Virus record (IMG/VR): IMGVR_UViG_3300028588_000001
Coordinates: 1 to 64,000 of that record
Strand: one strand, 5' to 3'
DNA length: 64,000 nucleotides
From: a virus
Taxonomy: Duplodnaviria > Caudoviricetes
Position numbers and translations under genes: made by a program. The notes beneath the pieces were generated by a model. The model ran no database searches. It was not told the DNA's origin and was given only the letters and a program-made list of their open reading frames with translations. Positions 34,258 to 34,311 of the stretch are shown piece by piece; within the stretch, counting starts at the first letter, position 1; every line of letters starts with the position of its first letter.

Positions 34258-34311
34258 CACTCCCTGACGAGCCCGTGAGATCCGGGCGAAACGCCGTGAG
34301 GCGTAGGAGTG
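34258..34311 (+). ncRNA. Type I hammerhead ribozyme core
   Basis: Stem I CACUCC/GGAGUG; CUGACGA (34264-70); stem II GCCCG/CGGGC; GAA; stem III ACGCC-GUGA-GGCGU; cleavage triplet GUA, with cleavage predicted after 34305. Confidence 0.9.

What the first reader, a model, noticed from the sequence alone, without database searches (positions are those of the whole stretch)
34258..34311. Complete type I hammerhead ribozyme in a phage-plasmid
Seen: every invariant core nucleotide is present with correct geometry: C3-U-G-A-C-G-A9 (34264-70), G10.1-C11.1, G12-A-A (34288-90), A15.1-U16.1, a GNRA-capped stem III, a 6-bp stem I and a GUA cleavage triplet. An extra GCGGU/ACCGC pairing (34236-40/34312-16) could extend stem I or form a pseudoknot. 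Established: hammerheads leave 2',3'-cyclic phosphate and 5'-OH ends, which RtcB-type ligases accept. Inference: cleavage after 34305 would split the transcript into a tRNA-proximal piece of ~290 nt and a 5'-OH piece of ~300 nt that remain base-paired, or could be re-ligated or circularised.
Basis: partly seen in the sequence, partly recalled or inferred. Interest (0 to 1): 0.85.

Follow-up and report, generated by a model that had tools for sequence, protein, structure and literature searches.

The report
Hammerhead ribozyme in phage late-operon leader
A genuine-looking self-cutting hammerhead RNA sits behind a tRNA gene in this phage; such ribozymes have been known in phages since 2011, so it is an ordinary new example, in an unusual non-coding place.

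Summary
The motif at 34258-34311 is exactly as described: a complete type I hammerhead with cleavage after A34305. It is not chance. A generic descriptor finds it once in the window and never in 300 shuffles. A covariance model built from 68 other viral type I hammerheads, without this sequence, scores it 57.7 bits (E about 1e-15), the only hit in the 79.8-kb genome. The one close relative that carries it (L031) keeps it, with a structure-preserving change in stem III.

It belongs to a large family in uncultivated phages (over 119 contigs) with a fixed UGAGAU(U/C) loop II, which scores below Rfam's thresholds. Family members usually lie between a stop codon and the next ribosome-binding site. 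This copy instead lies in the non-coding leader of the late operon, 289 nt after tRNA-Gln and about 300 nt before a terminator. It precedes a 130-nt stretch that is the best-conserved DNA in the locus.

Most likely it cuts the leader co-transcriptionally, giving the downstream RNA a 5'-OH end. The proposed circularisation or RtcB re-ligation has no support. Phage hammerheads have been known since 2011, and this scan has noted them in at least 100 other genomes. Verdict: new member of a known kind, in an atypical context.

The parts
33889..33910 (+). Conserved promoter-like box TAAAATTC-N4-CAATTCGATA, about 30 nt before the tRNA; probable start region of the leader transcript
   Evidence: Present with 0-1 mismatches in the window and 11 relatives (L002-L006, L012, L018, L029, L031, L206, L207). 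Promoter function is inferred; the sigma-70 consensus scan found nothing here.
33940..34016 (+). tRNA-Gln (UUG)
   Evidence: ARAGORN; Rfam tRNA 55.2 bits; conserved in L031.
34026..34049 (+). Conserved leader hairpin GCCACUUCCCAGAUAGGGCUGGGC
   Evidence: Found in L002, L003, L005, L029, L031 and L207, with or without tRNAs nearby.
34236..34240 (+). GCGGU, possible distal extension of stem I (pairs with 34312-16)
   Evidence: Forms in the MFE fold of 34230-34320. L031 has GUGGU/GCCGC, which is compatible through wobble pairs only, with a 55-nt insertion in between. Undecided.
34258..34311 (+). Type I hammerhead: stem I 34258-63/34306-11, core 34264-70, stem II hairpin 34271-87, GAAA 34288-91, stem III hairpin 34291-34304, scissile bond 34305/34306
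   Evidence: L031 keeps it with stem III changed from CGCC[GUGA]GGCG to CGC[GAAA]GCG.
34312..34442 (+). Conserved 130-nt domain that would become the 5'-OH end of the 3' cleavage product; includes a 43-nt block (34381-34423) that is invariant between the two phages
   Evidence: With the hammerhead it is 88.0% identical to L031 over 184 nt, against 78.7% in the terminase and portal genes. There are two compensatory changes: 34312:34345 A:U to G:C, and 34332:34352 C:G to G:C. No 3-nt periodicity of substitutions. No Rfam match. No excess folding energy, z = 0.0 and +1.0.
34443..34536 (+). Window-specific 94-nt segment, absent from L031
   Evidence: Alignment.
34537..34557 (+). Conserved pre-terminator element GCCAGUUUUCAGCCGCC
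   Evidence: Shared with L031 and L207.
34582..34607 (+). Intrinsic terminator of the leader (9-bp stem plus T-run)
   Evidence: Identical in L031; equivalent terminators are seen in L029, L012 and L207.
34626..35069 (+). First gene after the leader, a 147-aa hydrophobic protein; its start lies 18 nt after the T-run, so it needs read-through of the terminator
   Evidence: GC3 0.85. No family match beyond a weak MFS hit. L029 has the same terminator-RBS-ATG layout; the terminator and RBS sequences are also shared with L031.

Best explanation
34258-34311 encodes a functional type I hammerhead self-cleaving ribozyme. It belongs to a large, mostly uncultivated-phage family with a fixed UGAGAU(U/C) loop II.

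It is transcribed as part of a non-coding leader that runs in this order: promoter-like box, tRNA-Gln, spacer, hammerhead, conserved 130-nt domain, terminator. This leader heads the rightward late (packaging and structural) operon of an 80-kb phage of Oxalobacteraceae-like hosts that carries ParAB partition genes.

The ribozyme folds as soon as it is transcribed and cuts between 34305 and 34306. That separates the tRNA-bearing 5' part, which ends in a 2',3'-cyclic phosphate, from the downstream RNA, which gains a 5'-OH. The downstream RNA is either a terminated non-coding RNA of about 300 nt or, after terminator read-through, the late mRNA.

The inferred benefit is the one proposed for intercistronic phage hammerheads: a defined 5' end that is uncoupled from upstream processing and decay.

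Shown here: the motif, family membership, conservation and the leader architecture. Inferred: co-transcription with the tRNA, cleavage in vivo and the benefit.
For: 1. The core and helices are complete, and the MFE fold is the hammerhead.
2. Chance is excluded: 0 of 300 shuffles, and R1 scores 57.7 bits, E 1.6e-15, as the sole hit in the whole genome.
3. The family is real. The loop-II pattern hits more than 119 IMG/VR contigs. Of 136 hits, 114 have type I topology, although the pattern did not require it. In 68 sequences, stem II, which was not selected for, is 99.1% paired with covariation at 4 of 5 pairs. Overall 96.4% of cells pair, against 21-37% in slid controls.
4. L031 (82% TerL identity) keeps the ribozyme at the same place, one per genome. 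A 1-bp shortening of stem III there retains a GNRA loop.
5. The hammerhead plus the next 130 nt is the best-conserved DNA in the locus, at 88% against 78.7%.
6. The hammerhead fold holds about 0.8 of the ensemble when the 3' end of the transcript is at 34311-34330.
7. On the + strand between the tRNA and 34582 the scan finds no terminator, and the next gene starts 18 nt after the T-run.
8. Clustered phage hammerheads were shown to cleave in vitro and in vivo (PMC3088659).
Against: 1. There is no experimental cleavage data.
2. The position 6 nt upstream of the core is A in 94 of 95 family members and is C only in the window. This turns a conserved unpaired A into a sixth stem I base pair and could weaken the stem I/loop II tertiary contact needed at physiological Mg2+. 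L031 has the A.
3. At equilibrium the full-length leader prefers other folds: P(hammerhead) is about 0.01, although only 1.2-1.3 kcal/mol above the MFE.
4. The context differs from the family norm, where a stop codon abuts stem I and the next start lies a median 30 nt after the cut. The family's presumed role therefore cannot simply be transferred.
5. Only two genomes carry this arrangement.
6. The promoter and antitermination are inferred only.
Confidence: 0.62

Rival explanations
1. The motif is a hammerhead by descent but is catalytically weakened or idle here. It would be a passenger carried into the leader on a recombined fragment of another phage's operon.
For: The window lacks the family-invariant unpaired A next to stem I. 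The hammerhead-bearing segment is an insertion into a leader scaffold that relatives have without it. The element is not in the family's usual stop-codon/RBS setting. Equilibrium folding of the full leader disfavours the hammerhead fold.
Against: All core nucleotides and all three stems are intact in two genomes whose structural genes differ by 21%. The stem III change is structure-preserving. This segment is the most conserved in the locus, which argues for selection.
Confidence: 0.17
2. The ribozyme serves tRNA-Gln maturation by cutting the 3' trailer, as proposed for theta (HDV-like) ribozymes beside phage tRNAs.
For: It lies on the same strand, downstream of a tRNA in both genomes. A few other family members lie near tRNAs, for example L095 (tRNA 96 nt downstream) and L201.
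Against: The cut lies 289 nt from the tRNA 3' end (about 450 nt in L031). Theta ribozymes cut within +/-1 nt of the tRNA 3' end in 77% of tRNA-associated cases and within +/-5 nt by definition (PMC10879173). Only 17 of 121 family loci hold any tRNA. A 2',3'-cyclic phosphate would hinder, not help, exonucleolytic trimming (established knowledge).
Confidence: 0.07
3. Cleavage products are re-ligated or circularised by an RtcB-type ligase, or the hammerhead is one module of a large 'ornate' structured RNA whose halves stay paired.
For: Hammerhead ends are RtcB-compatible in principle (established chemistry). The 594-nt leader folds slightly better than shuffles, z = -2.2.
Against: There is one ribozyme per genome, so no fragment carries both a 5'-OH and a cyclic phosphate. 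The phage has no RtcB. No circles or splicing were found for phage hammerheads (PMC3088659). The large RNA is not conserved as a unit: 34052-34258 has no detectable similarity in L031, 34443-34536 is absent there, and L031 has two insertions of its own. There are no GOLLD, ROOL or other Rfam hits.
Confidence: 0.04
4. The hammerhead and the conserved block 34381-34423 form a ribozyme-coupled attenuator: the block pairs alternately with the ribozyme core or with the terminator arm.
For: RNAalifold pairs 34262-87 with 34393-34418. The gene after the terminator needs read-through.
Against: Neither complementarity is unusual. The hammerhead/block duplex energy is at the 25th percentile of 43-nt windows across the genome, and the block/terminator-arm duplex is at the 42nd.
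Confidence: 0.05

Closest known systems
Hammerhead ribozymes of bacteria and prophages (Perreault et al. 2011, PLoS Comput Biol, PMC3088659); Rfam clan CL00010, type I model RF00163
   Same: Identical catalytic core, three-helix junction and NUH cleavage site; phage genome context; co-oriented with the flanking genes.
   Different: It does not reach Rfam gathering scores. The window's best hit is 17.1 bits to RF00008, and family relatives score 23-25 bits against the cut-off of 34 for RF00163. It is a single copy in a non-coding leader, not one of several flanking genes.
The UGAGAU-loop type I hammerhead family of uncultivated phages defined here (alignment A4, model R1); it includes an unannotated copy in the isolated Ralstonia phage C22 (OR538033.1)
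   Same: Same loop II, 5-bp stem II, short stem I and hairpin stem III; scores 57.7 bits against R1.
   Different: Family members sit between a stop codon and the next RBS, with a median of 30 nt from the cut to the next start, and carry an unpaired A before stem I in 94 of 95 cases. The window copy is 320 nt from the next gene, follows a tRNA and has C at that position.
Theta (minimal HDV-like) ribozymes adjacent to phage tRNAs (Kienbeck et al. 2024, PMC10879173)
   Same: A small self-cleaving ribozyme downstream of a phage tRNA on the same strand.
   Different: A different ribozyme class. Theta ribozymes cut at the tRNA 3' end (+/-1 to 5 nt); here the cut is 289 nt away.
Lambdoid late leader (PR'-6S RNA-tR' with Q antitermination; tRNA genes in the late leader of Stx phage 933W). 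Recalled from established knowledge, not tested here.
   Same: A conserved promoter-like box, a non-coding leader with optional tRNAs, an intrinsic terminator and then late genes immediately after it.
   Different: No Q-like protein was identified. To my knowledge no ribozyme has been described in lambdoid leaders.

Membership tests
Hammerhead ribozyme (class) | Conserved core C3 U4 G5 A6 N7 G8 A9, G12 A13 A14, A15.1-U16.1, with H17 not G | tested here: met
   CUGACGA 34264-70, GAA 34288-90, A34291-U34304, A34305; identical in L031.
Hammerhead ribozyme (class) | Three helices around the core, supported by covariation | tested here: met
   The MFE fold is the hammerhead. The family alignment is 96.4% paired with covariation at 13 of 15 pairs. 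L031's stem III is shortened by one pair and keeps a GNRA cap.
Hammerhead ribozyme (class) | Stem I / loop II tertiary contact for activity at physiological Mg2+ | tested here: inconclusive
   Loop II UGAGAUC matches the family, but the family-invariant unpaired A before stem I is C in the window. No pseudoknot partner for loop II was found by eye.
Hammerhead ribozyme (class) | Site-specific self-cleavage giving 2',3'-cyclic phosphate and 5'-OH ends | not testable with these tools
   Needs in vitro transcription or end-specific RNA-seq.
Rfam RF00163 Hammerhead_1 / RF00008 Hammerhead_3 | Score at or above the family gathering threshold | tested here: not met
   No hit at gathering score; 17.1 bits against 48.5 for RF00008.
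UGAGAU-loop type I phage hammerhead family (model R1) | Significant score against a model built without the query | tested here: met
   57.7 bits, E 1.6e-15; L031 scores 52.4 bits.
UGAGAU-loop type I phage hammerhead family (model R1) | Intercistronic placement: stop codon abutting stem I, RBS and start within about 25-46 nt of the cut | tested here: not met
   The next real gene starts at 34626, 320 nt after the cut, and no coding gene ends upstream; the tRNA lies 242 nt away.
Theta-type tRNA-processing ribozymes | Cleavage site within +/-5 nt of a tRNA 3' end; HDV-like fold | tested here: not met
   The distance is 289 nt, and the fold is a hammerhead.
Ribozyme-bearing circular RNAs (viroid-like, retrozyme) or RtcB-joined products | Two cleavage sites bounding a unit, or both 5'-OH and cyclic phosphate on one fragment | tested here: not met
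   One hammerhead in each complete genome; no RtcB in the phage.
Large ornate phage RNAs near tRNAs (GOLLD RF01998, ROOL RF03087) | Match to the family model; conservation of the whole RNA | tested here: not met
   No Rfam hit even at E up to 10. Within the spacer between the leader hairpin and the pre-terminator element, only 184 nt are alignable with L031.

The most novel reading that the evidence does not exclude
The hammerhead and the 130-nt domain behind it are one functional unit specific to this phage lineage. Self-cleavage would create a 5'-OH-capped, terminator-ended regulatory RNA of about 300 nt, or a 5'-OH late-mRNA leader. The invariant 43-nt core of that RNA would act on late gene expression or on a host target. 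This would be a natural 'ribozyme-matured sRNA or insulated leader' in a phage.
Probability: 0.15. Interest if true: 0.55.

Novelty: new member of a known kind. Interest (0 to 1): 0.3.

Why it matters
Self-cleaving ribozymes are common in phages, yet their purpose is still unproven. This copy sits in a non-coding, terminator-bounded leader behind a tRNA, not between two cistrons. It therefore offers a simple test of what cleavage does to the stability and read-through of the downstream RNA, without translation of an upstream gene as a confounder.

A practical by-product concerns annotation. A large type I family in viral contigs scores below Rfam's thresholds and so goes unannotated. One such copy is in the cultivated Ralstonia phage C22.

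Tried and rejected
1. Homologues of the whole 610-nt spacer. blastn against GenBank phages and PLSDB plasmids found only the tRNA.
2. Flanking proteins as anchors. The membrane protein and the DpdA-like protein found no relatives in IMG/VR.
3. Terminase relatives. The 80 best-matching loci (of 443 relatives found) contain the RNA only in L031.
4. Exact 20-mer from the invariant block. No hits in metagenome or genome contigs.
5. The 29-mer hammerhead pattern. It found other family members in ordinary intercistronic settings, but no further copy of the leader RNA.
6. Closest bacterial-genome relatives (Massilia frigida, Oxalobacteraceae). They have the leader scaffold but no hammerhead.
7. Other ribozymes in relatives' leaders. 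None found by Rfam.
8. Ribozyme-coupled attenuator idea. Rejected because the duplex energies are unremarkable.
9. Small ORF in the 130-nt domain. A 13-codon ORF starting at AUG 34410 exists in both genomes, but it has a weak RBS and the substitutions show no codon periodicity. It was not pursued.
10. Excess structure in the 130-nt domain. None.
11. Q-like antiterminator. Not identifiable by Pfam or PHROGs.

Full report
**Observation.** The sequence at 34258-34311 reads CACUCC-CUGACGA-GCCCG[UGAGAUC]CGGGC-GAAA-CGCC[GUGA]GGCG-UA-GGAGUG. Every hammerhead core position is canonical, and stems I, II and III have 6, 5 and 5 pairs (stem III counting A15.1-U16.1). The open helix is stem I, so this is type I, and the scissile bond follows A34305. 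The local MFE fold is the hammerhead.

**Is it chance?** The specific pattern occurs once in the window and in none of 100 shuffles. A generic type I descriptor gives one hit in the window and none in 300 dinucleotide-preserving shuffles of the 64 kb on both strands. Rfam does not call it: the only gathering-level hit in the window is tRNA-Gln, and locally the best hammerhead score is 17.1 bits to the type III model.

**A family behind the motif.**
- The pattern says nothing about stems I or III, yet 114 of 136 hits have a hairpin stem III, a UH site and a stem I that closes on the 5' flank, which is type I topology.
- In a 68-sequence alignment that excludes the window and its relative, stem II (not selected for) is 99.1% paired and covaries at 4 of 5 pairs.
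- Over all 15 pairs, 96.4% of cells pair, against 21-37% when partners are slid, and 266 cells carry double changes. Stems I and III were partly selected by my filter, so stem II is the clean test.
- A covariance model from this alignment (R1) scores the window motif 57.7 bits, E 1.6e-15. It is the only hit in the 64-kb window and in the whole 79.8-kb genome.
- Family members themselves score below Rfam's cut-offs: 23-25 bits against 34 for RF00163, and 29.6 against 56.3 for RAGATH-1-hammerhead. Standard annotation therefore misses them.
- One family member lies unannotated in the isolated Ralstonia phage C22, starting at the stop codon of a small gene.

**Conservation.**
- Of the 80 best terminase-relative loci, only L031 (82% TerL identity, a complete 80.1-kb record) has the element, at the same place behind tRNA-Gln and once per genome.
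- The core, stem II and loop II are identical. Stem III changes from CGCC[GUGA]GGCG to CGC[GAAA]GCG, losing one pair while keeping a GNRA cap.
- The 184 nt from the hammerhead to 34442 are 88.0% identical, the highest value in the locus. The terminase and portal genes are 78.7% identical, and the spacer 34052-34258 shows no detectable similarity.

**Usual context of the family.**
- In 95 distinct copies, the base 6 nt before the core is A in 94.
- Positions -8 to -6 often spell UAA. In 32 of 85 copies an upstream ORF ends exactly at stem I, and TAA is the stop in 38 of the 44 copies where the ORF ends within 3 nt of it.
- The next ORF of at least 50 codons starts a median 30 nt after the cut, with an interquartile range of 25-46 nt.
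- Several contigs carry 2-5 copies.
- This is the intercistronic arrangement described by Perreault et al. 2011, who showed cleavage of such clustered ribozymes in vitro and in vivo. They proposed processing of long phage transcripts and found no spliced or circular products (PMC3088659). This scan has logged the same phenomenon in at least 100 other genomes.

**Context here.**
- GC3 analysis leaves 33632-34625 without a gene.
- Relatives share a leader scaffold made of a promoter-like box TAAAATTC-N4-CAATTCGATA, zero to four tRNAs, a hairpin with an AGAUAGG loop, a CCAGUUUUCAGCCGC element and an intrinsic terminator. A hydrophobic-protein gene follows, starting about 18 nt after the T-run, and the small and large terminase and portal genes lie further downstream.
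- No promoter fits between the terminator and that start codon, so expression of the first late gene must come through the terminator. This layout recalls lambdoid late leaders, but that is an inference: no Q-like protein was identified.
- Relative to this scaffold, the window and L031 carry an insertion of about 500 nt that holds the hammerhead.
- Bacterial-genome relatives are from Massilia, other Oxalobacteraceae, Undibacterium and Hydrogenophaga, which suggests a Burkholderiales host. They lack the ribozyme.
- ParA- and ParB-like genes support a plasmid-like lifestyle.

**Mechanism.**
- The hammerhead fold holds about 80% of the ensemble when the transcript ends at 34311-34330. It stays within about 1.7 kcal/mol of the MFE at every transcript length tested, although its equilibrium share falls to about 1% in the full leader. 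Co-transcriptional cleavage is therefore plausible.
- The cut would leave tRNA-Gln plus a 289-nt trailer ending in a cyclic phosphate, and a downstream RNA starting with a 5'-OH at G34306.
- That downstream RNA is either a roughly 300-nt species closed by the terminator hairpin or the read-through late message.
- A 5'-OH end is a poor entry point for 5'-monophosphate-stimulated decay (established knowledge for RNase E). The likeliest benefit is therefore a defined, protected 5' end, insulated from processing at the tRNA.
- The 130-nt domain shows two compensatory changes consistent with a pseudoknot (34309-16/34341-48 and 34329-34/34350-55). It shows no excess folding energy, no codon periodicity and no Rfam match. 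Its role is unknown.

**Caveats.**
- The window alone has C instead of the family-invariant unpaired A before stem I. This makes a sixth base pair and may weaken the tertiary contact; L031 keeps the A.
- Only two genomes carry the arrangement, and further searches found no more.
- Nothing here measures cleavage.

**Rejected readings.**
- tRNA 3' maturation in the manner of theta ribozymes does not fit, because those cut at the tRNA end (PMC10879173) and this one cuts 289 nt away.
- Circularisation or RtcB joining is chemically unsupported with a single ribozyme, and there is no phage RtcB.
- A conserved large ornate RNA is contradicted by the patchy conservation.
- A ribozyme/terminator switch is not supported by the duplex energies.

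**Verdict.** This is a real hammerhead and a new member of a known kind. It is noteworthy only for its placement in a non-coding late leader and for the conserved RNA it would release.

Noticed in passing
window 33889-33910, 34026-34049, 34537-34607; L002-L006, L012, L018, L029, L031, L206, L207: A conserved late-leader scaffold is shared by this phage group, including a Massilia frigida contig. It comprises a promoter-like box, an AGAUAGG-loop hairpin, a CCAGUUUUCAGCCGC element and a terminator abutting the first late gene. A variable cargo of 0-4 tRNAs and long spacers is inserted into it. It resembles a lambdoid PR'-tR' antitermination leader.
   Followed up: partly
L029:4440-4510; also L004:4808-4888 and L006:4413-4480: The first tRNA-like gene in some relatives' leaders is odd. 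ARAGORN reports a four-base anticodon (cagg) in L029. The L004 copy is 81 nt long, and the L006 copy scores only 31.6 bits to the Rfam tRNA model. These may be quadruplet-decoding or otherwise non-standard phage tRNAs.
   Followed up: no
L104:6701-6756 and 6943-7011: A family hammerhead is followed about 190 nt later by an HDV-like ribozyme (RF02682, 45 bits, just above the gathering score): two ribozyme classes side by side in one viral contig.
   Followed up: no
L100:1887-6201; L202:8896-10023: Arrays of five (L100) and three (L202) type I hammerheads of the same family within a few kb. All score below Rfam's gathering thresholds.
   Followed up: partly
L266:1492-1555 (Ralstonia phage C22, OR538033.1, about 33136-33199, reverse strand): An unannotated family hammerhead (56.8 bits to R1) starts at the stop codon of C22_00044 in a cultivated phage. 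It is a possible experimental model.
   Followed up: partly
A4 alignment column 4; family flanks: The base just 5' of stem I is A in 94 of 95 family members, whether or not it is the last base of a UAA stop codon. This suggests a structural (tertiary-contact) role overlapping the stop codon.
   Followed up: partly
window 10-6168: A 2052-aa ORF carries an ART-PolyVal ADP-ribosyltransferase domain (PF18760, 79.8 bits). It looks like a polyvalent protein of the kind found on plasmids and phages.
   Followed up: no
window 34428-34442; L031:2899-2913; L006 about 5001-5023: A short hairpin motif, YUGGAAAGACAG, recurs in the leaders of three related phages, just before a tRNA in L006.
   Followed up: no
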